DNA of 64,000 bases from Candidatus Nomurabacteria bacterium (GCA_023267435.1 JAHFNH010000001.1:174839-238838); one strand, 5' to 3'; counted from the stretch's first letter, positions 33,251 to 46,108 are shown. Numbers and translations are program-made. The notes: generated by a model from the sequence alone, not told the origin.

Positions 33251-33254
33251 TTTT

Positions 33255-33941
33255 ATGTCAAAAATAGTACACCCATATGCACATAGATTAGTAATACTTA
33301 GAGACTGGAAGTCTCGCTGGTTTGCTGATCCTAAAAAATACTGTGAGTACCTAAAGGGTGACGTTCTTATTCGTGAATTCTTGGAAAAGAAATTGCGCGG
33401 AATGTATATTTCTACTATTGAAATAGAAAGAAACCAAAAGGCGACTCGTTTTATCATTAAAACATCCCGCCCAGGACTTATCATCGGACGATCCGGTGAA
33501 GGCGCGACAAAACTTAAAGAAGAAATTTTGAAAAAAATGGCAAAACTAAAACTAACAAAGCTTGAAGATTTCAAGCTTGAAATAGTTGAAGTTGCAAATC
33601 CAGAAGCTGATGCTGCTATCGTTGCTTATATGATCGCTGAAGGTTTAGAGAAAAGAATGCCATATCGCCGAGTCATCAAGCAAGTTATCGAAAAGTGTAT
33701 GACTACTCGCGGAGTAGAAGGAGCAAGAGTTGTTCTTTCCGGCAGACTTGGTGGAGCTGAAATCGCTCGTACGGAAGAGCTTAAGCGCGGATCTATCCCG
33801 CTTCAGACTTTCCGCGCGGACATTGATTTCAAAAGAGAAAAAGCCCATTTGCCATACGGAGATGTCGGTATAAAGGTCTGGATTTATCGCGGTAAAATAT
33901 TTTCTCAGAAGAAAAAAGGAGAAGATAAAACCTTAAATTAA
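33255..33941 (+). CDS. rpsC: 30S ribosomal protein S3
   Basis: KH and S3-C domains. Confidence 0.95.
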   Translation: MSKIVHPYAHRLVILRDWKSRWFADPKKYCEYLKGDVLIREFLEKKLRGMYISTIEIERNQKATRFIIKTSRPGLIIGRSGEGATKLKEEILKKMAKLKLTKLEDFKLEIVEVANPEADAAIVAYMIAEGLEKRMPYRRVIKQVIEKCMTTRGVEGARVVLSGRLGGAEIARTEELKRGSIPLQTFRADIDFKREKAHLPYGDVGIKVWIYRGKIFSQKKKGEDKTLN

Positions 33942-33950
33942 TAAAAATAT

Positions 33951-34379
33951 ATGTTATTACCCAAAAAAGTAAAATTCAGAAAGTGGCACACCATGCGCTT
34001 AAATCCAAAAGCCATGACGCCAGAGACCAGAGGCACTAAATTAGCCTTCGGTTCTTTTGGTCTTAAAGCTGAGACTCAGGCACGCGTAAAATCAAACCAA
34101 ATCGAATCTGCTCGAAAAGCCATGTCTCGTACTTTGACCAAAGCCGGAAAATACTGGATTCGAATTTTTCCAGACAGACCATATACTGCAAAAGCTGCAG
34201 AAGTGGGCATGGGAAAGGGAAAAGGAGATCCACAAGGTTATTGTTTCGAAGTTTTCCCTGGACGCATAATTTTCGAAGTTGATGGAATAGACGAAGCGAC
34301 TGCACGCGAATCATTGAGAAAGGCCGGTACAAAGCTTCCAGTTAAGACCAGAATAGTATCAAGAGTTCATAAGCAATAG
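33951..34379 (+). CDS. rplP: 50S ribosomal protein L16
   Basis: Begins MLLPKKVKFRK. Confidence 0.95.
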   Translation: MLLPKKVKFRKWHTMRLNPKAMTPETRGTKLAFGSFGLKAETQARVKSNQIESARKAMSRTLTKAGKYWIRIFPDRPYTAKAAEVGMGKGKGDPQGYCFEVFPGRIIFEVDGIDEATARESLRKAGTKLPVKTRIVSRVHKQ

Positions 34380-34412
34380 TTCGACAGGCTCACTATAAAT
34401 AATTATAAATAT

Positions 34413-34613
34413 ATGGCAAAGAAAACAGAAAACAATATAAAAGGAATGAAAGTTGATGAACTTAAAAAAATGCTTGCCGATTTACAGGAAAGCATCCGAG
34501 TCATCAAATTCAAAGGACAAGGTTCAAAAACAAAGAATGTCAAAGAAGCTAGCACTCTACGAAAAGAAATTGCTCGAGTGTTGACAGAAATGAATAAAAA
34601 CAATAAAAAGTAA
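34413..34613 (+). CDS. rpmC: 50S ribosomal protein L29
   Basis: 66-aa L29-like helical protein. Confidence 0.85.
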   Translation: MAKKTENNIKGMKVDELKKMLADLQESIRVIKFKGQGSKTKNVKEASTLRKEIARVLTEMNKNNKK

Positions 34614-34636
34614 TATAAAAGAATTAATACAAATAT

Positions 34637-34897
34637 ATGGCAACAAAAGTAAAAAAAGAAATAACAGAAAAGAAAGGCAATATCTTAAAAGGAGTTGTTG
34701 TTTCAGATAAGATGGATAAAACCGTCGTTGTTTCTGTTTCACGCTTTGTTAAGCATCCAAAGTATGGAAAATTTCAGAAAGTGAGCAAGAAATACAAAGC
34801 TCACGATGAAGAGAATAAATATAAAACAGGAGATACTGTTGAAATACAAGAAACCAGACCAATTTCAAAAGATAAGAACTTTAAAGTAATAAAATAA
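34637..34897 (+). CDS. rpsQ: 30S ribosomal protein S17
   Basis: Motif [14 protein letters not shown]...TGDTVEI. Confidence 0.9.
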
Positions 34898-34901
34898 TTT
34901 T

Positions 34902-35273
34902 ATGATTCAAACAGAAACATTAGTAAAAATAACAGACAATGCTGGAGGCACCGTAGGAAAGGTGTTCAAGGTTTTAGGCAGTGCCCACAAGAGATACGCT
35001 CAGCTCGGAGAGATAGTTATTATTTCTGTTAAAGTTGCTCAGCCTAGAAAGGGAGTTAAGAAGAAAGATGTTCACCAAGCTGTCGTCGTTAGACAACGCA
35101 ATGCTTTCAGAAGAAAAGACGGTTCTTATATAAGATTTGATGACAATGCGGTAGTAATATTAGAAAAAGGAAAGAAAGATCCAAAAGCAGGACGCGTATT
35201 CGGACCTATCCCAAGAGAGCTTGCAGAAAAGGGATTCCAGAAAATAATTTCTTTAGCACCTGAGGTTATATAA
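34902..35273 (+). CDS. rplN: 50S ribosomal protein L14
   Basis: Begins MIQTETLVKITDNAG. Confidence 0.95.
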   Translation: MIQTETLVKITDNAGGTVGKVFKVLGSAHKRYAQLGEIVIISVKVAQPRKGVKKKDVHQAVVVRQRNAFRRKDGSYIRFDDNAVVILEKGKKDPKAGRVFGPIPRELAEKGFQKIISLAPEVI

Positions 35274-35282
35274 ATCAAATAT

Positions 35283-35588
35283 ATGAAATTAAAAAAAGGA
35301 GACAATGTAATAATCGTAACAGGAAAAGATAAAGGTAAGAAAGGTAAAATTGCCCGTGTTTTGGTTGAGAAAAACAGAGTGGTAGTAGAAGGCATTAATA
35401 TGATGAAGAAACATCAGCGTCCTAGAAAGTCTGGTGAAAAAGGCCAGATGATCAATATCGCAATGCCTATCCACGCTTCCAATGTTATGATCGCAGATCC
35501 AAAGACAGGCAAGCCTTCACGCTTAGGCAAGAAGAAAATTGGTGATAAGGTGGTAAGAATCGCTCGAAAGAGCAGTCAAGAAGTTTAA
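35283..35588 (+). CDS. rplX: 50S ribosomal protein L24
   Basis: KOW motif KKGDNVIIVTGKDKGKKG. Confidence 0.9.
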   Translation: MKLKKGDNVIIVTGKDKGKKGKIARVLVEKNRVVVEGINMMKKHQRPRKSGEKGQMINIAMPIHASNVMIADPKTGKPSRLGKKKIGDKVVRIARKSSQEV

Positions 35589-35600
35589 TAACAAATATTT

Positions 35601-36167
35601 ATGAAACATTTAACTGTAAAAGAAAAAGAAGTACTAATTTTCGATAAAATGAAAAGTACTTTTCACTATAAGAACATAATGGCTTCTCCTAAATTAAAGA
35701 AGATCGTTTTGAACGTCGGTACTGGAACTGCTATCAAGAAAGACAAGAATAAAAATGAAGCTATTGCAGAACGTCTAGCAAAAATCACCGGACAGAAGCC
35801 AGCCAAGAGAGGAGCAAAACAGTCCATCGCTTCTTTCAAGATTCGCCAAGGCGATCCTGTCGGAGTCATGGTGACTCTTCGTGGAAAGAGAATGTATGCT
35901 TTCCTTGAAAAGTTGATCAATGTTGCCCTTCCTCGTACCAAAGACTTCCGCGGTATCAATCGCAGAGCAGTGGACAATATCGGCAACCTTACTATCGGTA
36001 TCAAAGAACACACTATTTTCCCTGAAACAGCTGATGAAGATATCAAAGATGTTTTCGGTCTTGCTATCACAATAGTATCAAGTGCTAAGACAAAACCCGA
36101 AGGTTTCATGTTTTATGAACTCTTAGGAATGCCTTTTAAGAAAGAAGACGACAAGAAAAAGAAATAA
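35601..36167 (+). CDS. rplE: 50S ribosomal protein L5
   Basis: N-terminus aligns with L5. Confidence 0.9.
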   Translation: MKHLTVKEKEVLIFDKMKSTFHYKNIMASPKLKKIVLNVGTGTAIKKDKNKNEAIAERLAKITGQKPAKRGAKQSIASFKIRQGDPVGVMVTLRGKRMYAFLEKLINVALPRTKDFRGINRRAVDNIGNLTIGIKEHTIFPETADEDIKDVFGLAITIVSSAKTKPEGFMFYELLGMPFKKEDDKKKK

Positions 36168-36175
36168 AAATAAAT

Positions 36176-36217
36176 TAAAAATCCCCCGCCGACGAAAGTC
36201 GGCGGGGGATTTTGTTT
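36176..36217 (+). terminator. Strong intrinsic terminator directly after rplE, ending the S19-L5 transcription unit
   Basis: Stem atcccccgccgac/gtcggcgggggat plus a T-run. Confidence 0.75.
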
Positions 36218-36308
36218 CACCCAACATTCAGTTGACTTTTTAAGTAATATATGATAGAGTGTGAAGGACTAACTTCTTTGAAATAACTAAAAATCTTATA
36301 TATAGAAA

Positions 36309-37508
36309 ATGAAAAAAACAGCTAATGTGTTGTTATTTATAGCGATAGCTGTAATAACAAATATTTCTTTTGCCCAACAGGGTAAAGGAATGAAATTCGA
36401 AAGTGATTCATCACTCGTTAGTGCTTTATCAAAAGCAAAAAGTGAAGGTAAGAATGTTTTCATTGATTGCTTTACCACCTGGTGTGGTCCGTGCAAATTG
36501 ATGGTGAAAAATGTTTTTCCCAATGATACGGTGGGTGAATTCTTTAATTCTCACTTTGTCTGTATCAGCTACGATATGGAAACAAGTATTGGAAAAGAAC
36601 TCGCCAGGACATTTGAAGTGAATTGCTATCCGACTTATCTTTTTTTAGATAAAGACGGTAAATTGTTACACAGATCAAGCGGTGCACAACCTGTAAAGGA
36701 TTTCGTACAACTTGGCCATGATGCAGTTAATCCGGAGAAACAATATGCAACACTTGAGTATGATTACAAATCAGGTGGCATTACTCCTTTAGAGCTTATT
36801 CAGTATATGCATCTGCGACAAAATTCCGGGATGTCGGTTGACCAAGAACTGGAAAAGTATTTCAGCACTCAAAAAGAAGCTGATTATACTAGTAGTATGA
36901 ACTGGTCTGTAATTCGTGATTTTGGTGTGGACTACAAATCGCCTGTGTTTCAGTATTTGCTTAAAAGCAGAGAGGAATTTTGTGAATTGCATAATGCTGA
37001 TTCTGTAAATATGGTTTGCGTGTCACCTTATGCCAAGTTAATGAATAAATATATTTTTGGTAAAGTTCCTGATACAACTGGTTACAAAAATATACGAACA
37101 GAATTAATTGCACTTAAATTGCCGTCCACTGAACGCTTCATCCTTGGTATGGATTTATCATTTTATGAAATAACTCAAAATTGGCAGCAATTTGCTAAAA
37201 CAGCTGTTATTCATATTGAAGGTTATCATTACGATAGTCCTGAAGAGATAAATTATACCGCTTATTCATTTTATGAGCATATAAACGACACAGCATATTT
37301 GGAAAAAGCATTAGAATGGACTAAATGTTCTTTGGATATAAAAGAAGATCCGGCTTACATGGACACTTATGCTTCTTTGCTCTTTAAATTGGGTAGAAAA
37401 AAAGAAGCTCAAGCCATGGAAGAAAAGGCACTTAAATTAGCAAAAGAAAATGGAGAAGATATTTCTCAGTATGAAGAAATGTTCGCTAAAATTAAAGGTT
37501 TAAAATAG
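36309..37508 (+). CDS. Secreted thioredoxin-fold protein (CxxC = WCGPC) with a C-terminal helical domain
   Basis: Signal peptide LLFIAIAVITNISFAQ followed by FIDCFTTWCGPCK. Confidence 0.7.
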   Translation: MKKTANVLLFIAIAVITNISFAQQGKGMKFESDSSLVSALSKAKSEGKNVFIDCFTTWCGPCKLMVKNVFPNDTVGEFFNSHFVCISYDMETSIGKELARTFEVNCYPTYLFLDKDGKLLHRSSGAQPVKDFVQLGHDAVNPEKQYATLEYDYKSGGITPLELIQYMHLRQNSGMSVDQELEKYFSTQKEADYTSSMNWSVIRDFGVDYKSPVFQYLLKSREEFCELHNADSVNMVCVSPYAKLMNKYIFGKVPDTTGYKNIRTELIALKLPSTERFILGMDLSFYEITQNWQQFAKTAVIHIEGYHYDSPEEINYTAYSFYEHINDTAYLEKALEWTKCSLDIKEDPAYMDTYASLLFKLGRKKEAQAMEEKALKLAKENGEDISQYEEMFAKIKGLK

Positions 37509-37516
37509 TTTTTAAT

Positions 37517-37550
37517 GAAAAACCGAGATAGATATCTCGGTTTTTTAATT
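37517..37550 (+). terminator. Intrinsic terminator
   Basis: Stem ccgagatag/atatctcgg plus a T-run. Confidence 0.7.
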
Positions 37551-37570
37551 TTTATGTGTGATATAATATA

Positions 37571-37630
37571 TCAAGTATTTTAATTATTAGTTTAATTTTA
37601 TAAAAAAATGAAAAAATATATATTAGGAAG
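37571..37630 (+). promoter_or_regulatory. Duplicated promoter/leader module, copy 1
   Basis: ttttaattattagtttaatttt(a)taaaaaaatgaaaaaatatatattagg is about 90% identical to 41432-41482. Confidence 0.5.
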
Positions 37631-40600
37631 TTTAGTTTTAATGAGTATGGTTGGTTTTTTAGGAGTTAACATTCAGCATGTCGATGCTAAAGTCAAGATT
37701 GGTGCTAAATGTGGTGGATCGACTAGAAGTTCTCAAGATGGAATGCTTGTTCCTAATCGCTGGACACTTTATTCTAATGGAAGTGGTGGATATTACGTAG
37801 CTTGTGGTATTTTACCAGTCCACCGTCCTTGGCCAATAGCCGAAAACATCCAAAGCCCAGTATCAAACACAGTAATTCCTAACACAGCAAATCCTGGAGT
37901 ATCTGCAACAAACCCTATCCAATATATATTTAGAACATATCCGTTATTACCAGGTGATCCTCTTCCTGCCAATGATCCTGCAACTATCGGAAATAATCCT
38001 CCACCAATAGATCCGTATTCAAATGGTACGGAAACTCCTGTAGATGTAAATGCAGATGGCACTGTTGGATCGATTTTTAGTACTATTGCTTCAACTGCTA
38101 AAGTAATTTGGGAGCCAACATCATTGTTTGATAATATGGAATTTTGGAATCAACCTATGATGAGCTCTTTCAGAGCATTTAGACAAAGTACTGGTGGTAA
38201 TACTCCGGCTGAAAAATGGTATCCTGCACAAATAAACACGCTTCCAAATCCTGCTTCACAAATTCCATTAACTCGAGTTAAATTAAGTTGGAAACCCGTG
38301 GCTGGAGCAGACAGTTACCATGTAAAAATCACAGTAGTTAACAATCCATTAAACGTAGATCCAAATACACCAGCAGAGGTGGTTGTACCTGCTACTACTA
38401 GAAATTATGAGTTCGATGGACGAGGCAAGGTTTGGTATAAGTCTGAAGCGGTACCGTTTGTAGCTGGTCAGGAAATTATAGGACCAGATATAATAGAACA
38501 ACCTATAGTTTCAATGGTTCAAGGAAATATAAATACCAGTCATCCAAATGATTACTACACTTATAAATGGCCTACTATTTTGGGAGCTGTGAGTTATAAA
38601 TTGCAATACGCAGTATCATTTGCACCAATTATAGAAGGAACTCCTTTTGCAGATGGTGCTACATTTGTTGAAAATTCAAAAACAGTGATTGGTACTCCCG
38701 GTGGTCTTTATACTGTAACAACACATGTTTTACCTGGTGTTATAAATGAAAACAGTAATGACTCAGATACTGGCTATCATTCATTTGATTTCGCAAATAG
38801 TCCTCTTGCTAGTATTCACCCTACTATTCCTTTTCAAGATATTTATTGGCGTGTTGAAGGTATCGATAATCAGGGTAATGTTATTAAAGAGAATATTAAA
38901 TCAACAAATTACTTCACTCCTCCTGTCGCAAAGAAACCATACGCTCAAGCTTTCCCAACTTGGAACAGTACCGCTGGTGCGACTTCTTATGTAGTCGATA
39001 TGGCTGAAACACCTGATGCCCTTAATCTATTGCCAAAATTAACAAATCAAACATCTGTTGCAGAAAAAACAGGCACAACTACAAGTTCTGGAACTTTTCT
39101 TCTTAGAAGAATAGCTCCTGCTCATTCATATACTACTGGCACATTGAATGCTGGTCTATATGCCAATGACAGCGCTAAAAAATTTGTAGTTGATGAAATA
39201 ATAAAGTCATTAAAAGAAGATAGAATTTCATTTGTTAATATTAATGCAGCAATGGGAATATATGATTTTGAAAATTCTGTAGATGAAGCAGATGCTTTGG
39301 ATAGAGGAGTACCATATGTACCGGTAGATTATCAAGGAAATGACATGGATATAGTGACAAATTTCGACAATAATAGTCCTTCAAATTACTCTGATTATCT
39401 TTCTGCGGAAAATTGGATATATCCGTTAGTCACCGATGAATTAGGTTTGGTTGTCGTACCTCAAACAGCTTCAAATGTTCTTAAATTCACCACTAATGCA
39501 CCTATTAGTATTAAAAAGATTCTGACTGGTAATGCCACAATAAGTGTCAGTCAAATCGTTACTAATTCTAGTCCTACTAACTACAAGATGACGACAACTC
39601 TGACTTTTGGAGGCACAAATGGTTCCTATGCATTCAATATAACCAAGCATGGTAACAACGGTCTGAACTTAGCGGATGAAAATGTAAATCAATATGATCT
39701 GACATATCCGACAATCGGACCTGTATCAGTGGTTCCAAGTTTGGGTGGCAAAGATATCACTGAGTTCGCAAGATTGCTTCCAGGCAAACAATATTTCTAC
39801 CGAGTTACACCTCTAACAGACTCAAGCGCTGAAACCAATGTACCATTTACTTTCGGACTAACATCTCCAGTAATGTCATTAACCACTCCGACTATGACTC
39901 CTGATTCAATGACCATCTCCACTGATGGTGAAACAACTCTTTCTGCATATGATTTACAAGGTACGATCAAATCATTAGATATTAATACTAATCAGAAACT
40001 ATTACTACGAAGACCTCCTGGCAGAGAAGCCATCAATACACCTATCACTTGGACTGTGGTTCCTAGTGCCATAGATTATGTTGTTACACTTAAGGATGCA
40101 AACCATCAAGTGATTCAGACTGTTGCAACAACAGGGTCAACATATACAATAACCGATCCTAATGTGGCTTATTATTCCTTGCAAGCTCGTAATTCTGTGG
40201 GTGCAGGAACAGCAAGTATAGACTATCTTTTGCCAGTTTCCGTAGTTTCCAAAACAGCAACAATAGGAACTGTTTCTGTAAAAACCTATCTTGCCAATCT
40301 CAAGGCTTATATGACATCTCTAAAGGCTACAAGAAAAGCTTATGAAGCTTCTTTCAAAGCTACAAGCGCTGCCAATAAAACACGTCTTACAGCTATTAAA
40401 ACAGCCAATGCAACGGTTTCTAAATCCATTAAAAATGTTAATGCATTGAGTGGTTCTGTTAAGGTTACTCCAACTCCAACCAATCCCAGTAGTCCTTTTA
40501 AATCTGCCCTAAATGTTCCTATTAACAATTTGAAAGTTCAAATAGTTGTGGAGACAGCGCCTGGTGTATATACATCTGTCAGCGTGCCCAGCGCTACTGT

Positions 40601-41327
40601 GATTTCTACTACTCCAGCAGGAATTATAAAATGTCCGGCAGTGGCCGGGGTAGCATATCCTGCGACAGTAGATTGTTCTGAAACAGGATTGGCATTGAAT
40701 TCCAGTGTAAAGTTATCAGCGACTTCCACCATACCGACAATATTAAACACTCACTTCTATCAGTGGACTATGATACCTGGTTCGACTTCAGCCGGAGTAA
40801 ATACTTGTACTTATCCTTCTTCCAGCAATAATATCTTGTGTACAATGACAGGCACCAGAGAGATTCAAGCAGTTTATCAGTGTAACGATGGCTATGGATT
40901 CAACACTAAATCAAATCAATGTGAGAAGTCTGCCGTAGTTCAGACAGCTTGTACTAAGTTTAGCCCTACGATGACAAATTGCGGTCTTGGTTTAAATATC
41001 AGCCGAATAAATAAAAATTCTTTTACTTACAATGTGGCTGTTTCTCCAGCATCGCCTCTAGTGTCTGTGAACACCGCGCCAAGTTCTTCTTCACAATGTG
41101 TTAATAGTGGAACTTCGACTGCGACAAATTGTTATTTGTTCTACAATTCTTCTCCGCAATCAGTGACCTTGACTGCGTCTTCTTCTTCAGGAAGTCTGCC
41201 AGTCGGTTTCAAATGGATAGCGGGAACAGGATTGCCTTGTAACAATTCCACTTCAGCTACTTGTACTGTAAATATCACTAACCTGACTTCACAAGTTGCC
41301 GGAGGCATAACTGCTTCATTTCCTTAA
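37608..41327 (+). CDS. Giant secreted surface protein (1239 aa, S/T/N/P-rich, probably Ig/FN3-like beta domains)
   Basis: Signal peptide MKKYILGSLVLMSMVGFLGV. The LLRRPPGREA motif is shared with the 386..2137 protein. Confidence 0.6.
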   Translation: MKKYILGSLVLMSMVGFLGVNIQHVDAKVKIGAKCGGSTRSSQDGMLVPNRWTLYSNGSGGYYVACGILPVHRPWPIAENIQSPVSNTVIPNTANPGVSATNPIQYIFRTYPLLPGDPLPANDPATIGNNPPPIDPYSNGTETPVDVNADGTVGSIFSTIASTAKVIWEPTSLFDNMEFWNQPMMSSFRAFRQSTGGNTPAEKWYPAQINTLPNPASQIPLTRVKLSWKPVAGADSYHVKITVVNNPLNVDPNTPAEVVVPATTRNYEFDGRGKVWYKSEAVPFVAGQEIIGPDIIEQPIVSMVQGNINTSHPNDYYTYKWPTILGAVSYKLQYAVSFAPIIEGTPFADGATFVENSKTVIGTPGGLYTVTTHVLPGVINENSNDSDTGYHSFDFANSPLASIHPTIPFQDIYWRVEGIDNQGNVIKENIKSTNYFTPPVAKKPYAQAFPTWNSTAGATSYVVDMAETPDALNLLPKLTNQTSVAEKTGTTTSSGTFLLRRIAPAHSYTTGTLNAGLYANDSAKKFVVDEIIKSLKEDRISFVNINAAMGIYDFENSVDEADALDRGVPYVPVDYQGNDMDIVTNFDNNSPSNYSDYLSAENWIYPLVTDELGLVVVPQTASNVLKFTTNAPISIKKILTGNATISVSQIVTNSSPTNYKMTTTLTFGGTNGSYAFNITKHGNNGLNLADENVNQYDLTYPTIGPVSVVPSLGGKDITEFARLLPGKQYFYRVTPLTDSSAETNVPFTFGLTSPVMSLTTPTMTPDSMTISTDGETTLSAYDLQGTIKSLDINTNQKLLLRRPPGREAINTPITWTVVPSAIDYVVTLKDANHQVIQTVATTGSTYTITDPNVAYYSLQARNSVGAGTASIDYLLPVSVVSKTATIGTVSVKTYLANLKAYMTSLKATRKAYEASFKATSAANKTRLTAIKTANATVSKSIKNVNALSGSVKVTPTPTNPSSPFKSALNVPINNLKVQIVVETAPGVYTSVSVPSATVISTTPAGIIKCPAVAGVAYPATVDCSETGLALNSSVKLSATSTIPTILNTHFYQWTMIPGSTSAGVNTCTYPSSSNNILCTMTGTREIQAVYQCNDGYGFNTKSNQCEKSAVVQTACTKFSPTMTNCGLGLNISRINKNSFTYNVAVSPASPLVSVNTAPSSSSQCVNSGTSTATNCYLFYNSSPQSVTLTASSSSGSLPVGFKWIAGTGLPCNNSTSATCTVNITNLTSQVAGGITASFP

Positions 41328-41347
41328 TAATTAAAAGTATTTTTAAC

Positions 41348-41380
41348 AAAAACAGCCTCAGAAATGGGGCTGTTTTTTAA
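41348..41380 (+). terminator. Intrinsic terminator
   Basis: Stem cagcctcag/atggggctg plus a T-run. Confidence 0.65.
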
Positions 41381-41422
41381 TTTGCTTGTTTGTTTCTTGT
41401 ATAGTGTTATAATAGATCCATT

Positions 41423-41482
41423 ATCAGTTTTTAATTATTAGTTTAATTTTGTAAAAAAATATGAAAAAATATATATTAGGTT
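41423..41482 (+). promoter_or_regulatory. Duplicated promoter/leader module, copy 2
   Basis: Near-identical to 37571-37630 through the first 8 codons (MKKYILG). Confidence 0.5.
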
Positions 41483-42153
41483 TGTCAGTTTTGACTTTGT
41501 TGGTTTTTGTTGGTTTTGGTGCTCAAAAGGCTTTTGCAGCTGCAAAGTGTAGCGTTGCTGCCGACTGTCCTGGTGCAACAGATAAGTGTTGGTATGGTTC
41601 ATGCGTAGCTACTATGACTGTAGGAGGAGGGGTTCTTAATAGTATTGATAATGCTTCCGTAGTTGCTAAAGATTCTAACGCTACTAATCTGCAACTCAGA
41701 ACAGCTCTTCAGGCATTAGTTGATGCTAATAAATTTGATATTGCTACTAGATCTGATTATCAAACACCAGTCGCAGGTCAAAAGACAGTAGCAGGAACTC
41801 CAGATGTTACTGCAACTAGTTATGAACTTGCTATTTATGATGTACAAGGTAATTATAAACTTTCAATCCATGATCTTCAAACACCAAAGGTAACTTTAAA
41901 CAATATAAATTACCCTGGTCTTCAGGCTGGAGATAAGTTTGCAACTAGATGGTATGTTAATAATAAGCTAGGAAAAAGTCCAGCTGGTGCTTTGACTGTT
42001 TTAACAGCTGATGCAGTTGCTGGTGGTAAATCAGCTACTTCTGTTGATGCTAAGAACTTTGCTTCTTGTGATGCACAACTCAAGGCTGTTTATCAAGGAT
42101 TTTCATTCCTTAATAGGATAATAAAAGATCCAACCGCTGGTCCTAAGTATTAA
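41461..42153 (+). CDS. Secreted protein sharing a leader with the giant protein
   Basis: Signal peptide MKKYILGLSVLTLLVFVGFGAQKAFA followed by the Cys-rich AAKCSVAADCPGATDKCWYGSC. Confidence 0.55.
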   Translation: MKKYILGLSVLTLLVFVGFGAQKAFAAAKCSVAADCPGATDKCWYGSCVATMTVGGGVLNSIDNASVVAKDSNATNLQLRTALQALVDANKFDIATRSDYQTPVAGQKTVAGTPDVTATSYELAIYDVQGNYKLSIHDLQTPKVTLNNINYPGLQAGDKFATRWYVNNKLGKSPAGALTVLTADAVAGGKSATSVDAKNFASCDAQLKAVYQGFSFLNRIIKDPTAGPKY

Positions 42154-42193
42154 TAACAAAAACTTGTTAATCTTTAACAAGAAATAGTTAATC

Positions 42194-42230
42194 AAAAAAT
42201 CCTCCGCCACTGGCGGAGGATTTTTTGTTG
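42194..42230. terminator. Intrinsic terminator (CCTCCGCCA...TGGCGGAGG family)
   Basis: Stem atcctccgccac/tggcggaggat flanked by A- and T-runs. Confidence 0.7.
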
Positions 42231-42257
42231 GTTGAGAGATTAAAGTTTGACTATTTT

Positions 42258-43313
42258 TTACTCAACTAAATATGTATTTGTGGAAAATATATATTGTTCA
42301 ATAAATATTTTTTTCATTGGCATTATTGAGTACGTTTCATAGAATACTAGTATAGCTTCGCGATAATTTACTTCATCGACACTCCTGTATGAAAGTGGTG
42401 CGCATTTATGTGCAAGTAAAATAGCATTGGCTAAAAGTCTAGCAGTTCTTTTATTTCCATCTTCGAATGGTTGAATATAACTCATTCCAAGTATTATGAG
42501 TAGTGCTTTGGTATAAGGGTTATTTGTATGGTTAACTAATTTATTCAGTTCTTCCAAAGCTTCATGAATTTGGTATTGATTATCAAGTGGCTTGTATACA
42601 GTACCAGTTATTCCAACTGGAGACTTTCTAATTCCAAAATTTACATTAAGTCCGGAAACTATTTTTTTATGAATTTCTTCAACAAGGGGATTTTGGATAT
42701 TTTTAGAAAAATCTCCTTCTCGCTCTAAAATAAACTCGAAAGCTTTTTTATGATTTAATATCATTATAGATTCATTTTTTGAGTGTCCTTTAGCCGGTAT
42801 CCCTTCACGAATTAGACGTTCAGTGTCAAGCAGAGTGTATGTATTTCCTTCTATTTTTGATGATTTCCAGGATAATTCTATAATGAATCTCTCCAATTCT
42901 TTTTTATGGATTCCTTTTGGAGAATTTTTTATGCGTATCCTATATTCTTTTGTTGCATTATCAAGTTCAATTTCTTCTTCTTTTGAGAATAAATTAAAAT
43001 CTATTTTAGAAAATAATTCAAAATTATAAGATTTTGAACCGCTTCTCTTATCTGGATCAATGGCACAATATGTTTTTGCATCAATAGGGGATAAGATTTC
43101 TCCTTGTACGCTTAATTTGTAGATTATAGATCTTCCTTTACCAGTTTTTTCTAAATATCCAAGTTTTAAAAGATTTGATAAATCTCTTTTTATTGTTACA
43201 AGAGAACTTCTTTCCTTTTTTTTAAGGATATTAAAAATACCCGACGAAGAAATTTCTTTTTCTTGCCTTATTATTTCTAGTATGTTTATTTGTCTATTTT
43301 TTAACTCTGTCAT
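42258..43313 (-). CDS. Fic/Doc-family protein with N-terminal wHTH and a degenerate active-site motif (QPFEDGNKRTAR)
   Basis: The Fic core is recognisable. The canonical HPFx[DE]GNGRxxR reads QPFEDGNKRTAR, confirmed on the DNA at 42447-42473 (ttg = Gln on the minus strand). Confidence 0.7.
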   Translation of the reverse strand: MTELKNRQINILEIIRQEKEISSSGIFNILKKKERSSLVTIKRDLSNLLKLGYLEKTGKGRSIIYKLSVQGEILSPIDAKTYCAIDPDKRSGSKSYNFELFSKIDFNLFSKEEEIELDNATKEYRIRIKNSPKGIHKKELERFIIELSWKSSKIEGNTYTLLDTERLIREGIPAKGHSKNESIMILNHKKAFEFILEREGDFSKNIQNPLVEEIHKKIVSGLNVNFGIRKSPVGITGTVYKPLDNQYQIHEALEELNKLVNHTNNPYTKALLIILGMSYIQPFEDGNKRTARLLANAILLAHKCAPLSYRSVDEVNYREAILVFYETYSIMPMKKIFIEQYIFSTNTYLVE

Positions 43314-43424
43314 TATCGTATCATTTTAACCATTTAATCGTATCATTTTGATACGTAAAAGGCAAGTTTTTTAGTGGTTTATTTTAAAGGTTTCTAGTTT
43401 TTTAATTATCTTAATTGATTAAAT

Positions 43425-43453
43425 TTGACTATTTTATTTCATTCTGCTAGTAT
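43425..43453 (+). promoter_or_regulatory. Promoter of the rpsZ-secY operon (TTGACT-17-TGcTAGTAT)
   Basis: Same architecture as the rpsS promoter. The 110-nt leader contains direct repeats AGGGAATA(G/A)G. Confidence 0.45.
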
Positions 43454-43567
43454 CAGAACTAAGGGAATAGGTTTTGATTAATCCATTTTTCTCCTTATTT
43501 TTTCAGGCAACTGAGGGAATAAGAAAAGAAGTGAGATATTGCAAAGCAAACCCGATATTATTTTTAT

Positions 43568-43753
43568 ATGGCAAAAACATCAGTTATAGCAAGAAGTAAA
43601 AAAACACCTAAGTTTTCAACTCGACAGAAGAATCGATGTTTTCGTTGTGGCCGTGGTAACGGTTTCATGAGAGATTTCGGCCTATGTCGTATTTGTTTCA
43701 GAGAATTGGCAAACGAAGGTATGTTGCCAGGTATTAGAAAGTCTTCTTGGTAA
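43568..43753 (+). CDS. rpsZ: 30S ribosomal protein S14, type Z (zinc-binding)
   Basis: 61 aa with CFRCGR...CRICFRE. Confidence 0.9.
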   Translation: MAKTSVIARSKKTPKFSTRQKNRCFRCGRGNGFMRDFGLCRICFRELANEGMLPGIRKSSW

Positions 43754-43766
43754 TTTCAAAAAATAT

Positions 43767-44153
43767 ATGGATTCAATTTCAAACATGATAATAATGCTTA
43801 AAAATGCAAGCCTTGCCGGCAAGGAGTCTGTTTCTTTACCATATTCAAAAATGAAAGCAGCGATAGCAGAATGTTTAAAGAAAGAAGGTTATGTTACTGA
43901 AATTTCAAAGAAAACAAAAAAAGGCCAGCCTTTGCTTGAAGTCGGCTTGGTCTATGTAGACAAGAAGCCAAAAATCACCGAAGTAGAAAGAATTTCCAAA
44001 CAATCCCGCCGAGTATATTTCGGAATGAAAGATATTCATACAGTTCGCAATGGTTCAGGACTTTTAGTTCTTTCCACACCCAAAGGCATTATGTCCGGCA
44101 AGCAAGCTAGAAAAGAACAAGTCGGAGGAGAGGCATTATTTAAAATTTGGTAA
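43767..44153 (+). CDS. rpsH: 30S ribosomal protein S8
   Basis: S8 sequence ending GGEALFKIW. Confidence 0.9.
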   Translation: MDSISNMIIMLKNASLAGKESVSLPYSKMKAAIAECLKKEGYVTEISKKTKKGQPLLEVGLVYVDKKPKITEVERISKQSRRVYFGMKDIHTVRNGSGLLVLSTPKGIMSGKQARKEQVGGEALFKIW

Positions 44154-44162
44154 TTAAAATAT

Positions 44163-44696
44163 ATGAGTAGAATAGGAAAACAAGAAATAGTAATACCAGC
44201 AGGAGTAGAAGTCACAAAGAATGGCGCTATTTTGACAGTGAAAGGTCCAAAAGGAACTTTGACTAAGACTTTCCGAGATGATATCGAAATAAAAATCGCA
44301 GACAAGATGGTTACTTTATCCATAAAGAGAAATGACAAATTTTCAAAATCTCTTTGGGGTACATACGCTTCTCATATCAAAAACATGATTGCCGGAGTAC
44401 AGACACCTTACCAGAAAAAGCTTATCCTAGAAGGAGTCGGATTTAAATCTGAAGTTAAAGGAAAAGAAATTCATTTTGCTTTAGGATTTTCTCATCCAGT
44501 TATCGTCCCTATTCCAGAAGGTCTGACTGTTACAGCTGAAAAAAATAACATTACTGTTACCGGTATCGACAAAGAATTAGTTGGTAGCTTCACAGCAGCT
44601 GTTCGCGCATTAAAGAAACCAGAACCTTACAAGGGTAAAGGTATGCGTTATGAAGGTGAAGTCATCAGAAGAAAACAAGGTAAGAAAACAGCATAG
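44163..44696 (+). CDS. rplF: 50S ribosomal protein L6
   Basis: Begins MSRIGKQEIVIP. Confidence 0.9.
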   Translation: MSRIGKQEIVIPAGVEVTKNGAILTVKGPKGTLTKTFRDDIEIKIADKMVTLSIKRNDKFSKSLWGTYASHIKNMIAGVQTPYQKKLILEGVGFKSEVKGKEIHFALGFSHPVIVPIPEGLTVTAEKNNITVTGIDKELVGSFTAAVRALKKPEPYKGKGMRYEGEVIRRKQGKKTA

Positions 44697-44715
44697 TAAT
44701 AATTAATTTAAATAT

Positions 44716-45057
44716 ATGATTAAGAAAGACGAAAAAAGAACAAGATTAAAAGCAAAAATCCGAGCAAAGATCAACGGTACTTCAGAGCGTCCAAGACTTT
44801 CTGTTTTTCGTTCAAATAAATTTATTTATGCGCAGATTATTGATGATGTTACAGGCAAGACTTTAGCACAGGCTAGCGATATTAAAACAAAGAAAGGTAC
44901 AAAGTCTGAAAGAGCAATGCAGATCGGCAAAGACATAGCCGCAGTCGCTATCGCCAAGAAGATCAGCCAAGTTGTTTTTGATAGAAACGGATTTAAATAC
45001 ACAGGCCGTATCAAATTAGTAGCTGACGAAGCAAGAGCTTCTGGATTGAAATTTTAA
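44716..45057 (+). CDS. rplR: 50S ribosomal protein L18
   Basis: Motif RLSVFRSNKFIYAQIIDD. Confidence 0.9.
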   Translation: MIKKDEKRTRLKAKIRAKINGTSERPRLSVFRSNKFIYAQIIDDVTGKTLAQASDIKTKKGTKSERAMQIGKDIAAVAIAKKISQVVFDRNGFKYTGRIKLVADEARASGLKF

Positions 45058-45065
45058 TAAAATAT

Positions 45066-45617
45066 ATGGAAAAAGGAAACGAAAAAAGAAATACCGGCCG
45101 CCGTCCATCATCTTTTGATAGGCCAAAACCTGAATTTGATCAGAAGATCTTAGACATTCGCCGTGTTACTCGTGTCGTCGCAGGAGGACGCAGATTCTCT
45201 TTCTCTGTTGCACTAGTAGCCGGTGACAGAAAAGGTGCTATCGGCTTAGGTTTAGGAAAAGCTGGAGACACATCTCTCGCGATCAATAAAGCATTGAGAA
45301 ACGCAAAGAAAAATATGGTTAGATTAAATTTGACCAAGACTATGTCTATTCCTTATGAAGTTTCCGCTAAGTTCTCCGCTTCTAGTGTTAAACTTATACC
45401 AAACAAAGGCCGTGGACTTGTAGCAGGATCAATAATGCGTGATATTATTAAATTAGCTGGTATGAAAGATATTACAGGAAAGATTTTATCTGGAACTAAG
45501 AATAAATTAAACAATTCTAAGGCTGTTATGTTGGCATTGTCAAAAATTTCTACTAAATATTCAAAACCAGTTGAGACTGTCGTTGTTGCCGGAAAAGAAG
45601 AAGTTAAGAAAGATTAA
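45066..45617 (+). CDS. rpsE: 30S ribosomal protein S5
   Basis: Motif RVTRVVAGGRRFSFSVALVAGDRKG. Confidence 0.9.
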   Translation: MEKGNEKRNTGRRPSSFDRPKPEFDQKILDIRRVTRVVAGGRRFSFSVALVAGDRKGAIGLGLGKAGDTSLAINKALRNAKKNMVRLNLTKTMSIPYEVSAKFSASSVKLIPNKGRGLVAGSIMRDIIKLAGMKDITGKILSGTKNKLNNSKAVMLALSKISTKYSKPVETVVVAGKEEVKKD

Positions 45618-45634
45618 TTTGATATAATAATTTT

Positions 45635-46105
45635 ATGCAGATACATAATTTAAAAAGACAACACAAAAATAAGAAAGACCGCTTGGTAGGACGCGGAGGC
45701 AAACATGCTAAGACTTCCGGCCGCGGAGGCAAGGGTCAGACAGCTCGTGCCGGAAACAAGCGCCGTCCAGAACTTCGCGATATCATCAAGAAATTGCCGA
45801 AGCATCGCGGATACATGTTTAATTCTTTCCAGATCAAGCCTGTTTGTATTTCTCTCGATAAAATTGCTAAAGCTTACTCAAAAGGCGGAGCAGTGAACCC
45901 AGTTTCCTTATTGGAGTTAAAGGTAATTAAAAAAATGAAAGGTGTTGTTCCAAAGATTAAACTCTTGGGCGGCAAGGAAGATTTCAATGTTAAGATCCAA
46001 GTTTCTAAATGTTTAGTTTCAGATTCTGCTAAAGAAAAAATAACAAAAGCTGGCGGAGAAGTTTCTCCGGTTAAGCCTGAAGAGATTGTGAAAAAAGCCA
46101 AATAA
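45635..46105 (+). CDS. rplO: 50S ribosomal protein L15 (follows S5 directly; no L30 gene)
   Basis: Motif GRGGKHAKTSGRGGKGQTARAG. Confidence 0.9.
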   Translation: MQIHNLKRQHKNKKDRLVGRGGKHAKTSGRGGKGQTARAGNKRRPELRDIIKKLPKHRGYMFNSFQIKPVCISLDKIAKAYSKGGAVNPVSLLELKVIKKMKGVVPKIKLLGGKEDFNVKIQVSKCLVSDSAKEKITKAGGEVSPVKPEEIVKKAK

Positions 46106-46108
46106 TAT

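What the first reader, a model, noticed from the sequence alone, without database searches (positions are those of the whole stretch)
36176..43567. A ~7.3 kb accessory island splits the ribosomal-protein superoperon between rplE and rpsZ
The S19..L5 genes end in a strong terminator at 36176-36217. The S14..SecY genes restart from their own promoter at 43425. In between lie four genes: a secreted thioredoxin-fold (WCGPC) protein, a 1239-aa secreted surface protein, a 230-aa secreted protein sharing its leader, and a convergent Fic-family gene. Each has its own terminator. The S10 genes (L3/L4/L23/L2) are also missing upstream of rpsS, which instead has its own promoter. The rpsS and rpsZ promoters share the TTGAC(A/T)-N16/17-TGcTAGTAT architecture. 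This points to a rearranged and invaded r-protein locus, which is unusual given how conserved this cluster is.
Basis: partly seen in the sequence, partly recalled or inferred. Interest (0 to 1): 0.65.

Follow-up and report, generated by a model that had tools for sequence, protein, structure and literature searches.

The report
Cargo island at a ribosomal-operon boundary
The four-gene insert between the ribosomal genes rplE and rpsZ is real and specific to this species, but it sits at an old transcription-unit boundary that most related Nomurabacteria also use as a slot for surface-protein genes, next to a conserved, previously undescribed RNA leader in front of rpsZ.

Summary
rplE ends at 36167 and is followed by a perfect 16-bp terminator hairpin. 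Four genes follow: a secreted WCGPC thioredoxin-fold protein, a 1239-aa surface protein, a 230-aa secreted protein and a convergent Fic gene. rpsZ then restarts at 43568 behind its own promoter.

In 68 related Nomurabacteria/Paceibacterota species, L5|S14 is the only one of 15 junctions from S19 to SecY that ever expands. It is never shorter than about 120-145 nt, and 40 of 68 species carry 0.5-3 kb of other cargo there, often type IV pilins. None carries this window's four genes. The sister species have 527-563 nt with no remnants.

The split is therefore ancestral and only the cargo is new. The island has native codon usage, no integrase, no flanking repeats and no tRNA. Shuffled versions of the same modules occur on two other metagenome contigs.

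Upstream of rpsZ, all 69 readable relatives share the promoter region and a ~110-nt leader. Its two helices are supported by covariation. Its invariant core (AUC / GAUAU with a bulged UA) resembles the S8 site of 16S helix 21, making it a candidate S8 autoregulatory leader. rpsS has its own conserved promoter and hairpin.

The parts
32368..32395 (+). rpsS promoter-like site, TTGACA-N16-(TGc)TAGTAT
   Evidence: The same motif lies upstream of rpsS in 63/67 related loci, mostly 28-50 nt before the ATG.
32403..32426 (+). Conserved short hairpin (GGCUC...GAGCU) plus U-run in the rpsS 5' UTR
   Evidence: Listed as terminator-like. In the alignment of 53 leaders the closing pair is AU in 42 and GC in 10, and the other four pairs are almost invariant.
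32436..36167 (+). Transcription unit rpsS-rplV-rpsC-rplP-rpmC-rpsQ-rplN-rplX-rplE
   Evidence: Pfam. The block is collinear in 80 relatives with compact junctions.
36178..36221 (+). Intrinsic terminator after rplE: 16-bp perfect stem, GAAA loop, U-run. It reads as a hairpin plus T-run on both strands.
   Evidence: -32.8 kcal/mol, z -7.4. A shorter hairpin sits at the same place in L001/L002. A hairpin is detectable in only about 24/79 relatives with a crude scan.
36232..36260 (+). Promoter-like site of the Trx gene (TTGACT-17-TAGAGT, TGn)
   Evidence: Homology to contig L082 starts exactly here.
36309..37508 (+). Secreted thioredoxin-fold protein: signal peptide, WCGPC, then a C-terminal helical/TPR-like half
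   Evidence: Pfam Thioredoxin_2/_7/DsbH and NCBIfam. 819 homologues were found, and the named ones are mostly Bacteroidota with a few Patescibacteria.
37516..37547 (+). Terminator hairpin after the Trx gene
37608..41327 (+). 1239-aa secreted surface protein, with 14 Cys of which 12 lie in the last 230 residues. It is built from two modules: residues ~10-870 and a Cys-rich C-terminal module ~960-1239.
   Evidence: No Pfam, NCBIfam, PHROG or PADLOC match. There are only 27 relatives among 1.84 billion cluster representatives, and they match one module or the other. The C-terminal module modelled at pLDDT 86.7 as all-beta tandem sandwiches. Its best matches, all weak, are Gram-positive pilins and adhesins.
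41348..41377 (+). Terminator hairpin after the 1239-aa gene
41461..42153 (+). 230-aa secreted protein (Cys at 30, 36, 43, 48, 203). Its promoter, 5' UTR and signal peptide are paralogous to those of the 1239-aa gene.
   Evidence: A 37% identical homologue sits next to Trx on L082.
42193..42227 (.). Bidirectional terminator (17-bp perfect arms) shared by the 230-aa gene and the Fic gene
   Evidence: I8. The same hairpin occurs at both ends of contig L082.
42258..43313 (-). wHTH + Fic-fold protein with the non-canonical motif QPFEDGNKRTAR
   Evidence: Pfam Fic 6e-13 plus a wHTH. The alignment to FICD shows Gln in place of the catalytic His and Lys in place of the second Gly. All 120 best homologues carry QxF[ED]DGNKRxxR.
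43314..43354 (.). Operator-like repeats directly upstream of the Fic start: ATCGTATCATTTT twice (43314-26 and 43336-48) and the palindrome CGTATCA-TTT-TGATACG (43338-54)
   Evidence: Read from the sequence. Not tested.
43425..43453 (+). rpsZ promoter-like site, TTGACT-N17-(TGc)TAGTAT
   Evidence: The strict motif is present at the same place in about 51 of 68 related loci. With a looser pattern it is found in 60 of 69 sequences, window included.
43455..43567 (+). Conserved structured 5' leader of rpsZ: a long irregular hairpin with helices P1 and P2 and an invariant asymmetric internal loop
   Evidence: RNAalifold on 48 distinct leaders. 96.6% of cells are paired against 38-54% in slid controls, and 13/21 pairs show two-sided changes. 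The covariance model hits once per locus in the window (93.4 bits) and 69 loci, and nowhere else in 1.35 Mb. MFE is -30 kcal/mol, z -3.7. There is no Rfam family match.
43568..47380 (+). Transcription unit rpsZ-rpsH-rplF-rplR-rpsE-rplO-secY
   Evidence: Pfam. The unit is collinear and compact in the relatives.
31700..32236 (-). 178-aa secreted or lipoprotein-like gene inserted at the other border of the S19-L5 unit (between RNase H and rpsS). It is absent from the sister species.

Best explanation
In this Nomurabacteria lineage the ribosomal-protein supercluster is organised as separate transcription units: [..L2] | [S19..L5] | [S14..SecY].

The S14 unit has its own strong promoter with an extended -10. 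It also has a ~110-nt structured leader that most likely serves autogenous control by S8, which is encoded by the second gene of the unit.

Because both flanks are expressed independently, the short spacer between the rplE stop and the rpsZ promoter tolerates insertions. It has become a slot where self-contained cassettes, each with promoter, gene and terminator, are gained, lost and shuffled. The cassettes mostly encode secreted or surface proteins.

This window holds the largest cargo seen at the slot (7.2 kb). It comprises an exported thioredoxin-fold oxidoreductase, two cysteine-bearing secreted or surface proteins with paralogous 5' ends, and a convergent wHTH-Fic gene. The oxidoreductase probably makes or isomerises disulfides in these proteins.

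Status of each step:
- Shown: the gene map, the lineage-wide hotspot, the conservation and covariation of the leader, the lineage-specific cargo, its native composition and the module shuffling.
- Inferred: actual transcription starts and stops, S8 as the ligand, the Trx-substrate relationship, and a role in host contact.
For: **Hotspot**
- Of 15 junctions from S19 to SecY in up to 79 loci, only L5|S14 is ever >=400 nt (40/68). Its minimum is 119 nt, median 681, maximum 3023. All other junctions have medians <=29 nt and maxima <=168 nt (raw gaps).
- Sister taxa differ strongly in gap size: 152 vs 1555, 209 vs 1989, 149 vs 1155. This indicates turnover.
- Cargo in relatives includes 22 type IV pilins (KKGFTLIELLVVVAIIG; Pfam N_methyl), an 18-member small-protein family, and a reverse transcriptase in L027. 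99 of 121 cargo ORFs are co-oriented with the ribosomal genes.

**Unit border**
- The promoter motif lies upstream of rpsZ in most relatives.
- The leader is present once per locus, always directly upstream of S14, in the window and 69 loci.
- Its structure is supported by covariation.
- The rpsS promoter is conserved in 63/67 relatives.

**Specific cargo**
- It is absent from all 80 loci.
- The sisters show no remnants.

**Native style**
- The correlation of relative synonymous codon usage with the rest of the window is 0.88-0.96, against a background of 0.86 +/- 0.06. GC is 0.29-0.385, within range.

**Module shuffling and Trx linkage**
- L082 has Fic(-, 93% aa) directly next to Trx(+, 80%), then a 230-aa homologue (37%). 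It has no big gene, and the order is permuted.
- L083 has a big-protein homologue (33%) divergent from Trx (54%).
- L084 has Trx (39%) followed by two unannotated ORFs.

**Cysteine content**
- 14 Cys in the big protein and 5 in the 230-aa protein.

**Resemblance to the S8 site**
- The invariant core is C33-G103, U32-A104, bulged U105 and A106, then A31-U107, then a 30-108 pair that covaries (AU in 27, GC in 20).
- The 16S helix 21 site is C599-G639, U598-A640, U641, invariant A642, G597-C643 and A596-U644. The triples and A642 are as described in PMC4176348. The E. coli base numbering was rechecked from my own recollection of the sequence.
Against: - There are no expression data. Read-through of the rplE terminator, or of the cargo terminators, into rpsZ cannot be excluded.
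- A hairpin terminator after rplE was detectable in only about 24 of 79 relatives with a crude scan. In genomes with the minimal spacer the two units may be partly co-transcribed.
- The S8 assignment rests on motif resemblance only. The 597-643 equivalent is A-U rather than G-C, the 595 equivalent is a pyrimidine, and there is an extra bulged A102.
- The organism's own 16S rRNA was not available for comparison.
- The leader structure was derived from the same sequences used to count pairs, so the slid controls flatter it somewhat (caveat).
- The link between Trx and the surface proteins is co-occurrence on three contigs, not a test.
- Only relatives with L5 >=75% identical were sampled, so how far the arrangement extends within Patescibacteria is unknown.
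Confidence: 0.7

Rival explanations
1. A recently acquired mobile genomic island (integrative element, transposon or prophage remnant) invaded and broke an otherwise continuous ribosomal operon.
For: The four genes are absent from all 80 related loci and from the sister species. The Trx family is mostly Bacteroidota by name. The Fic protein matches phage families (PHROG 11900, 1e-34) and the SoFic defence model. The order of modules is permuted on L082, as after a circular intermediate.
Against: There is no integrase, transposase or recombinase among the four genes. There is no tRNA. Only chance-level flanking repeats were found. Codon usage and GC match the rest of the window. The operon break, promoter and leader predate the cargo and are shared by 69 relatives. 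The Fic family is widespread in CPR genomes at 55-68% identity, in varied contexts.
Confidence: 0.1
2. The cargo genes sit here because they benefit from co-expression with the ribosomal genes. Read-through from the strong rpsS-rplE unit would couple pilin or adhesin output to growth rate. The junction would then be a selected expression site, not merely a tolerated gap.
For: 82% of cargo ORFs in relatives are co-oriented with the ribosomal genes. The cargo is dominated by abundant surface-structure proteins such as type IV major pilins. Many relatives lack an obvious terminator after rplE.
Against: In this window every + strand cargo gene has its own promoter-like site and a strong terminator, and rplE ends in a -32.8 kcal/mol hairpin. 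One gene is convergent. There are no expression data.
Confidence: 0.15
3. Assembly or binning artefact: the island was joined to the ribosomal blocks by misassembly.
For: The source is a metagenome-assembled genome. Hairpin terminators recur (42193-42227 resembles hairpins on L082) and could confuse assemblers.
Against: The same L24-L5-Trx-Big-230-Fic-S14 order appears on an independently built Logan contig at 100% identity across both junctions. Composition is uniform. Relatives show insertions at exactly the same junction.
Confidence: 0.03
4. The rpsZ leader is not an S8 sensor. It could bind another protein of the unit (S14, L6, L18, S5 or L15), or act as a protein-independent stabiliser or attenuator.
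For: The match to the helix 21 site is imperfect: A-U in place of G597-C643 and an extra bulge. There is no Shine-Dalgarno sequence near the AUG to occlude. The conserved UUUCUCCUU tract is unexplained.
Against: S8 is the established repressor of the homologous E. coli genes and acts through mimicry of helix 21 (PMC3616713, PMC4176348). The invariant 3' strand GAUA with a bulged U-A, next to U-A and C-G pairs, reproduces the core of that site.
Confidence: 0.3

Closest known systems
E. coli spc operon and its S8 translational operator (Cerretti/Nomura; reviewed in PMC3616713, PMC4176348)
   Same: The gene order L14-L24-L5-S14-S8-L6-L18-S5-L15-SecY is the same. An RNA element on the mRNA resembles the S8 site of 16S helix 21, and S8 is encoded downstream of it.
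   Different: In E. coli the operator overlaps the rplE start, and rpsN through rplO are translationally coupled to rplE. Here the unit starts at rpsZ with its own promoter. The element is a ~110-nt 5' leader about 60 nt upstream of the AUG, L5 belongs to the upstream unit, and L30 is absent. The E. coli RNA is reported as restricted to Gammaproteobacteria (PMC3616713). No Rfam family matches this leader.
Ribosomal-protein leaders found by comparative genomics (e.g. the 20 candidates in PMC7247131; L10, L13, L19, L20, L21 and S15 leaders in Rfam)
   Same: It is a conserved, covarying 5' UTR structure upstream of a ribosomal-protein operon, and a likely site for autogenous control.
   Different: It lies upstream of rpsZ/rpsH in Patescibacteria. 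That paper mentions no S14, rpsN, rpsH or CPR leader.
Integration hotspots and genomic islets between conserved core genes
   Same: Variable cargo sits between two strictly syntenic core blocks. The content differs between sister species and is biased towards surface and host-interaction genes.
   Different: The site lies inside the ribosomal-protein supercluster. No integrase, tRNA or att repeats are present. The cassettes have native composition, and each carries its own promoter and terminator.
Extracytoplasmic thiol-disulfide oxidoreductases (DsbA/ResA/DsbD-gamma type Trx folds)
   Same: It has a signal peptide and a WCGPC active site on a Trx fold, and it neighbours cysteine-rich exported proteins.
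   Different: It carries a ~260-residue helical C-terminal extension. All NCBIfam matches fall far below their family cut-offs. The family is typical of Bacteroidota. No substrate has been shown.
Fic/Doc (Fido) proteins, including the SoFic defence protein
   Same: It has the Fic fold (Pfam 6e-13, FICD 3e-9, PADLOC SoFic 2e-19) and a DNA-binding wHTH in the same protein.
   Different: The catalytic His of HxFx(D/E)GNGRxxR is Gln, and the second Gly is Lys (as in Doc's NKR). This holds in all 120 closest homologues. The wHTH is N-terminal.

Membership tests
Mobile genomic island / integrative element | Encodes an integrase, recombinase or transposase | tested here: not met
   Pfam, NCBIfam, PHROG and PADLOC scans of all four genes show none.
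Mobile genomic island / integrative element | Flanked by direct repeats (att) or terminal inverted repeats, often next to a tRNA | tested here: not met
   Only short AT-rich repeats at chance level were found. One 15-nt repeat (42243/43421) brackets the Fic gene, but about a dozen such pairs are expected by chance. The nearest tRNA-like gene is the tmRNA at 61887.
Mobile genomic island / integrative element | Composition or codon usage deviates from the host genome | tested here: not met
   Codon-usage (RSCU) correlation is 0.88-0.96 against a background of 0.86 +/- 0.06, and GC is within range. The tetranucleotide correlation is slightly low (0.90), which fits the T/S/N-rich big protein.
Mobile genomic island / integrative element | Presence or absence varies among close relatives | tested here: met
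   Absent from 80 related loci and from the sister species.
Contiguous spc-type ribosomal operon | rplE and rpsN/Z adjacent and co-expressed (translationally coupled in E. coli) | tested here: not met
   The gap is 7400 nt here and 119-3023 nt in 68 relatives. Promoter and leader sit in front of rpsZ. Co-expression itself cannot be tested.
Autoregulatory ribosomal-protein leader (S8/helix 21 mimic) | Conserved secondary structure in the 5' UTR of the operon that encodes the regulator | tested here: met
   rpsH is the second gene of the unit.
Autoregulatory ribosomal-protein leader (S8/helix 21 mimic) | Mimics the protein's rRNA site: U-A pair, bulged U and invariant A, flanking pair forming a triple | tested here: inconclusive
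   The topology and the 3' strand GAUA match the E. coli site as described in PMC4176348. However, 597-643 is A-U here and there is an extra bulged A. The organism's own 16S is not in the window.
Autoregulatory ribosomal-protein leader (S8/helix 21 mimic) | The protein binds the RNA and represses expression | not testable with these tools
   Needs binding and reporter assays.
Fic AMP-transferases | Catalytic motif HxFx(D/E)GNGRxxR with the catalytic His | tested here: not met
   QPFEDGNKRTAR, aligned to FICD HPFIDGNGRTSR. The Gln and Lys are conserved in 120/120 homologues.
Doc-type Fido kinases | Motif HxFx(D/N)(A/G)NKR (from my knowledge of Doc) | tested here: not met
   NKR is present but the His is Gln. 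No antitoxin-like partner gene lies adjacent.
SoFic anti-phage defence | Full-length match to SoFic with an intact Fic motif | tested here: not met
   The PADLOC match is partial (profile positions 55-217 of 361, 68 bits). The NCBIfam SoFic score is 17.8 bits against a cut-off of 550. The motif is degenerate.
Thioredoxin-fold thiol-disulfide oxidoreductase | Trx fold with a CxxC active site | tested here: met
   Pfam Thioredoxin_2/_7/Thioredoxin above cut-off, and WCGPC at residues 58-62.
Thioredoxin-fold thiol-disulfide oxidoreductase | Exported, and acts on neighbouring secreted proteins | not testable with these tools
   An N-terminal hydrophobic signal-like segment is visible. Co-occurrence with Cys-bearing secreted proteins is seen on L082, L083 and L084. 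There is no biochemical test.
Type IV pilins (cargo at the same junction in relatives) | N-terminal G|FTLIE prepilin motif followed by a hydrophobic helix | tested here: met
   Pfam N_methyl at 8e-10. 22 ORFs carry KGFTLIELLVVVAIIG. None is present in this window's island.

The most novel reading that the evidence does not exclude
Nomurabacteria may have turned the borders of their ribosomal-protein transcription units, L5|S14 above all, into dedicated and fast-evolving expression slots for host-contact surface proteins (type IV pilins, adhesin-like proteins and their folding helpers). Cassettes would be swapped between genomes by recombination at shared promoter and terminator modules. The rpsZ unit downstream would be governed by a new class of S8-responsive leader RNA that arose independently of the gammaproteobacterial spc operator.
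Probability: 0.3. Interest if true: 0.7.

Novelty: new variant of a known kind. Interest (0 to 1): 0.55.

Why it matters
Ribosomal-protein clusters are used as the syntenic backbone for CPR/Patescibacteria phylogeny and for checking metagenome bins. A lineage-wide insertion slot inside that cluster is therefore of practical relevance.

It also points to where these episymbionts keep rapidly changing surface genes. These include type IV pilins, which the literature treats as predicted mediators of host attachment in Patescibacteria (PMC11623550).

The rpsZ leader gives a directly testable case of ribosomal autoregulation in a phylum where none is described. If S8 binds it, the case would show independent evolution of helix 21 mimicry.

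The conserved Gln/Lys Fic motif defines a large CPR protein family that probably does not AMPylate.

Tried and rejected
- AlphaFold2 on residues 200-520 of the 1239-aa protein, without an alignment, gave pLDDT 31. The model was unusable and was not searched.
- The word-indexed homologue search found only the big protein itself. The exhaustive HMMER search was needed to find its 27 relatives.
- Foldseek against AFDB50 was unavailable. The PDB search of the C-terminal module gave only low TM-scores (<=0.26). I therefore claim only 'tandem beta-sandwich, adhesin/pilin-like'.
- My first scan for the rpsS promoter in relatives found none. This was an artefact of too long a spacer in my regular expression. 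One search corrects it to 63/67.
- Rfam at a permissive threshold over 43380-43620 gave only chance-level hits with E >= 0.3.
- I considered that L082 might be a circular element, because the same hairpin sits near both its ends. I rejected this. The first 140 nt of L082 encode the C-terminus of a different protein, and nothing else repeats between the ends.
- Remnants of the island in the sister gaps: none found.
- The crude terminator scan after rplE in relatives missed known hairpins such as those in L001 and L002. Its 24/79 is a lower bound.
- Contexts of big-protein relatives and of Fic relatives were short contigs. They show only that these genes sit elsewhere in other genomes.
- Literature searches found no description of an L5|S14 break, of pilins in the ribosomal cluster, or of an rpsZ leader in CPR. 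Absence from this open-access library does not prove novelty.

Full report
**What is in the window**

- Upstream block: rpsS (true ATG 32436), rplV, rpsC, rplP, rpmC, rpsQ, rplN, rplX and rplE (ends 36167).
- Insert: four non-ribosomal genes.
- Downstream block: rpsZ (43568), rpsH, rplF, rplR, rpsE, rplO and secY (ends 47380).
- RecJ, RNase H and a 178-aa secreted-protein gene lie upstream of rpsS.
- No S10, L3, L4, L23 or L2 was found among the larger ORFs scanned, and the L2 signature HPHGGGEG is absent from all 64 kb.
- After secY come an unannotated ORF, a cytidylate-kinase-like gene, adk, a UMP-kinase-like gene and map.

Regulatory signals:
- The rplE terminator is a perfect 16-bp hairpin at 36178-36213 with a U-run (-32.8 kcal/mol, z -7.4).
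- Strict promoters with an extended -10 (TTGACN-N13-16-TGnTAnnWT) occur five times in the window, against 0.6 expected. Two of them precede rpsS and rpsZ.
- The Trx and big genes each end in a hairpin with a T-run. The 230-aa gene and Fic share a bidirectional hairpin.

A second assembly of the same locus shows the identical order across both junctions. It may derive from the same reads.

**Who it is, and what relatives look like**

A scan of one genome per species with the L5 protein returned 80 loci. All are Candidatus Nomurabacteria/Paceibacterota (Patescibacteria), with L5 75-91% identical. I mapped the window's proteins onto them.

- The S19-L5 and S14-SecY blocks are collinear everywhere.
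- Of 15 internal junctions, 14 are compact, with medians <=29 nt, maxima <=168 nt and none >=400 nt.
- L5|S14 is the exception. Its minimum is 119 nt after end correction (145 nt raw), median 681, maximum 3023, and 40 of 68 species are >=400 nt.
- In L003 the S14-SecY block has moved away. In L067 there is no S14 within 10 kb.
- Gap size is scattered on a concatenated ribosomal-protein tree, and sister taxa differ by more than 1 kb. This indicates repeated gain and loss.

None of the window's four proteins, nor the 178-aa protein, hits any of the 80 loci. The sister species L001 and L002 have 527 and 563 nt at the junction. They share only the rplE terminator position and the rpsZ promoter/leader with the window, with no gene remnants.

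**What relatives carry at the junction**

Open reading frames in the expanded gaps fall into recurring families.
- 22 are bona fide type IV pilins (Pfam N_methyl, N-termini KKGFTLIELLVVVAIIG), sometimes in tandem.
- 18 belong to a small family with an EIDQALKEFE motif, usually just upstream of a pilin.
- L027 has a reverse transcriptase.
- Many are singletons.
- 99 of 121 are co-oriented with the ribosomal genes.

L2|S19 is a second variable border. Its minimum is 71 nt, median 470, and 31 of 51 are >=400 nt, with a maximum of 5.4 kb. L2 is absent within about 6.8 kb in the window, L001, L002 and three others.

**Why this junction**

The strict promoter TTGACT-N17-(TGn)TAGTAT lies 131-191 nt upstream of the rpsZ ATG in about 51 of 68 relatives. 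With a looser pattern it is found in 60 of 69 sequences, window included. The transcribed leader that follows is conserved.

RNAalifold on 48 distinct leaders predicts two stacked helices.
- 96.6% of cells are paired, against 38-54% when the partners are slid.
- 13 of 21 pairs change on both sides.
- The covariation score is 0.535, against <=0.18 for slid controls, and 0 of 500 shuffles reach it. The structure was derived from these same sequences, which favours it in the slid control.

A covariance model built from this alignment hits exactly once per locus, on the + strand directly upstream of S14. It does so in the window (43455-43568, 93.4 bits) and in 69 loci. Nothing else in 1.35 Mb matches except the reverse strand of the same sites. 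The one S14-bearing locus without a hit has that stretch masked by Ns. Rfam has no matching family.

The window's leader folds as one long irregular hairpin (-30 kcal/mol, z -3.7). All cargo lies upstream of the promoter.

rpsS likewise has a conserved promoter (63/67 relatives) and a small conserved hairpin with a U-run in its 5' UTR.

The supercluster in this lineage is therefore a set of autonomous units, and variable DNA accumulates only at their borders.

**A candidate S8 leader**

The invariant core of the leader is:
- 5'-A31 U32 C33 paired with 3'-G103 A104 ... U107;
- U105 and A106 bulged;
- a neighbouring pair 30-108 that covaries (A-U in 27 sequences, G-C in 20).

The primary S8 site in 16S helix 21 has U598-A640, C599-G639, U641 forming a triple with G597-C643, an invariant bulged A642, and A596-U644 (PMC4176348). 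E. coli S8 represses the spc operon through a mimic of this site at the rplE start, with rpsN through rplO translationally coupled (PMC3616713).

The topology and the GAUA 3' strand match. The differences are an A-U at the 597-643 position, a pyrimidine at the 595 position, and an extra bulged A102.

S8 is encoded by the second gene of the unit and looks canonical. I rate S8 as the most likely ligand, at about 0.5. This is an inference, not a test.

**The cargo itself**

*Trx protein.* It has a signal-peptide-like N-terminus, WCGPC on a thioredoxin fold, and a ~260-residue helical tail. Its family has 819 detected members, and the named ones are mostly Bacteroidota with a few Patescibacteria.

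*Big protein (1239 aa).*
- It has no family match and only 27 relatives among 1.84 billion cluster representatives.
- The relatives split into an N-terminal/central module and a C-terminal Cys-rich module that also occurs alone in short proteins.
- With those relatives as the alignment, the C-terminal 280 residues model well (pLDDT 86.7) as tandem beta-sandwiches. The nearest solved folds are Gram-positive pilins and adhesins, but TM-scores are low, so only the fold class is claimed.
- It has 14 cysteines, 12 of them in that module. The 230-aa protein has five.

*Shared 5' ends.* The big and 230-aa genes share about 105 nt of promoter, UTR and signal peptide.

*Module shuffling.* Trx travels with such proteins elsewhere.
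- L082 has Fic (93% aa), Trx (80%) and a 230-aa homologue (37%), in a different order and without the big gene.
- L083 has a big-protein homologue divergent from Trx (54%).
- L084, a more distant Paceibacterota, has TIM-PGK-HIT-RecJ-RNase H as in the window, then Trx (39%) and two unannotated ORFs.

This supports a working unit of exported oxidoreductase plus disulfide-bearing surface proteins, assembled from shuffled cassettes.

*Composition.* Codon usage and GC are those of the host genome. There is no integrase, tRNA or meaningful flanking repeat.

*Fic gene.*
- It encodes an N-terminal wHTH plus a Fic fold in which the catalytic His is Gln and the second Gly is Lys (QPFEDGNKRTAR).
- All 120 closest of more than 7000 homologues share this motif. 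They are widespread in CPR genomes at 55-68% identity and sit in unrelated contexts.
- It matches the SoFic defence model only partially and fails the motif test.
- Operator-like repeats abut its start codon.

**Verdict**

The split of the superoperon is an old, conserved property of Nomurabacteria, not damage done by this island. The island is the largest known filling of a recurrent slot.

The more novel results are three:
- the lineage-wide hotspot itself;
- the covariation-supported rpsZ leader with an S8-like core;
- the conserved non-canonical Fic family.

No expression or binding data exist, so transcription-unit limits and the S8 mechanism remain inferences.

Noticed in passing
window 43455-43567 (and one site in each of 69 related loci): A conserved ~110-nt structured leader lies upstream of rpsZ. 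It has two covarying helices and an invariant asymmetric loop resembling the S8 site of 16S helix 21. No Rfam family matches it. It comes in two sequence variants: GAUUAAUCC...GAGAUAUU and GAUCUGUG...AAGAUAUC.
   Followed up: yes
window 32368-32426: A conserved rpsS promoter (63/67 relatives) is followed by a 5-bp hairpin (A/G)GCUC...GAGC(U/C) plus a U-run, only about 8 nt downstream of the -10. It may be an attenuator or a protein-binding site.
   Followed up: partly
window 31700-32236 and the L2|S19 junction in L003-L080: L2|S19 is a second variable border (median 470 nt, up to 5.4 kb). In the window, L001 and L002 the L2 block is elsewhere. The window also has a unique 178-aa secreted or lipoprotein-like gene between RNase H and rpsS.
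   Followed up: partly
window 42258-43313 (- strand) and homologues P0122-P0241: A large CPR-wide family of ~350-aa wHTH-Fic proteins carries the conserved motif QxF[ED]DGNKRxxR, with Gln replacing the catalytic His and Lys as in Doc. These proteins are probably not AMP-transferases.
   Followed up: partly
window 43314-43354: A direct repeat ATCGTATCATTTT (twice, 22 nt apart) and the palindrome CGTATCA-TTT-TGATACG abut the Fic start codon. They could be an operator for the protein's own wHTH.
   Followed up: no
L082:1-3473 and L083:1-3353: Related contigs carry the same modules in other orders: surface-protein C-terminus, hairpin, Fic(-), Trx(+), 211-aa protein, hairpin; and big-protein homologue(-) next to Trx(+). 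The homology breakpoints with the window fall at the Trx promoter (36232) and about 60 nt upstream of Fic (43372).
   Followed up: partly
L004, L008, L020, L022, L025, L033, L045, L050, L068, L070, L077 and others, between L5 and S14: Type IV pilin genes, sometimes 2-3 in tandem, sit between rplE and rpsZ together with a partner small-protein family that has an EIDQALKEFE motif. L027 instead has a reverse transcriptase (RVT_1, 338 aa) next to a 223-aa protein of a small family.
   Followed up: partly
L008, L018, L023, L030 (between the leader and the S14 ATG): An extra ~65-nt element (TTTACTTGTCCCGTTAGAAAAT...) is inserted between the conserved leader and the rpsZ start in some relatives.
   Followed up: no
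window 36309-37508: The family of the Trx-fold protein is dominated by Bacteroidota by source name, and its signal peptide ends ...SFAQQ. An old transfer between Bacteroidota and Patescibacteria is possible, but no tree was built.
   Followed up: no
window 37608-41327: The big protein is a mosaic. Its Cys-rich C-terminal ~280 residues recur as a stand-alone module in 187-335-aa proteins and at the C-terminus of otherwise unrelated proteins. Three W..(V/L/A)G(A)..Y motifs at residues 228, 321 and 452 suggest FN3-like repeats, but no model confirmed this.
   Followed up: partly
window 20655-25177: Four consecutive + strand ORFs (393, 215, 478 and 390 aa) have no Pfam match apart from a Gly_rich_2 domain. 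The stretch has raised GC and GC skew. It is probably another surface-protein cluster.
   Followed up: no
window 47542-48947 and the SecY|adk junction in relatives: SecY|adk is also variable (13 of 57 relatives >=1 kb). A cytidylate-kinase-like gene on the opposite strand is found in 38 of the 57 relatives that have both SecY and adk, and in most of these it lies between the two genes. The 260-aa ORF is shared only with L001.
   Followed up: no
window 52218-54971: A 917-aa protein has weak TrwB/TraG coupling-protein domains, suggesting a type IV secretion or conjugation-like ATPase.
   Followed up: no
window 61428-62269: smpB is immediately followed by the tmRNA gene (tag AKLTSKQSPYFGMKDLALAFA). 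This is an ordinary arrangement.
   Followed up: no
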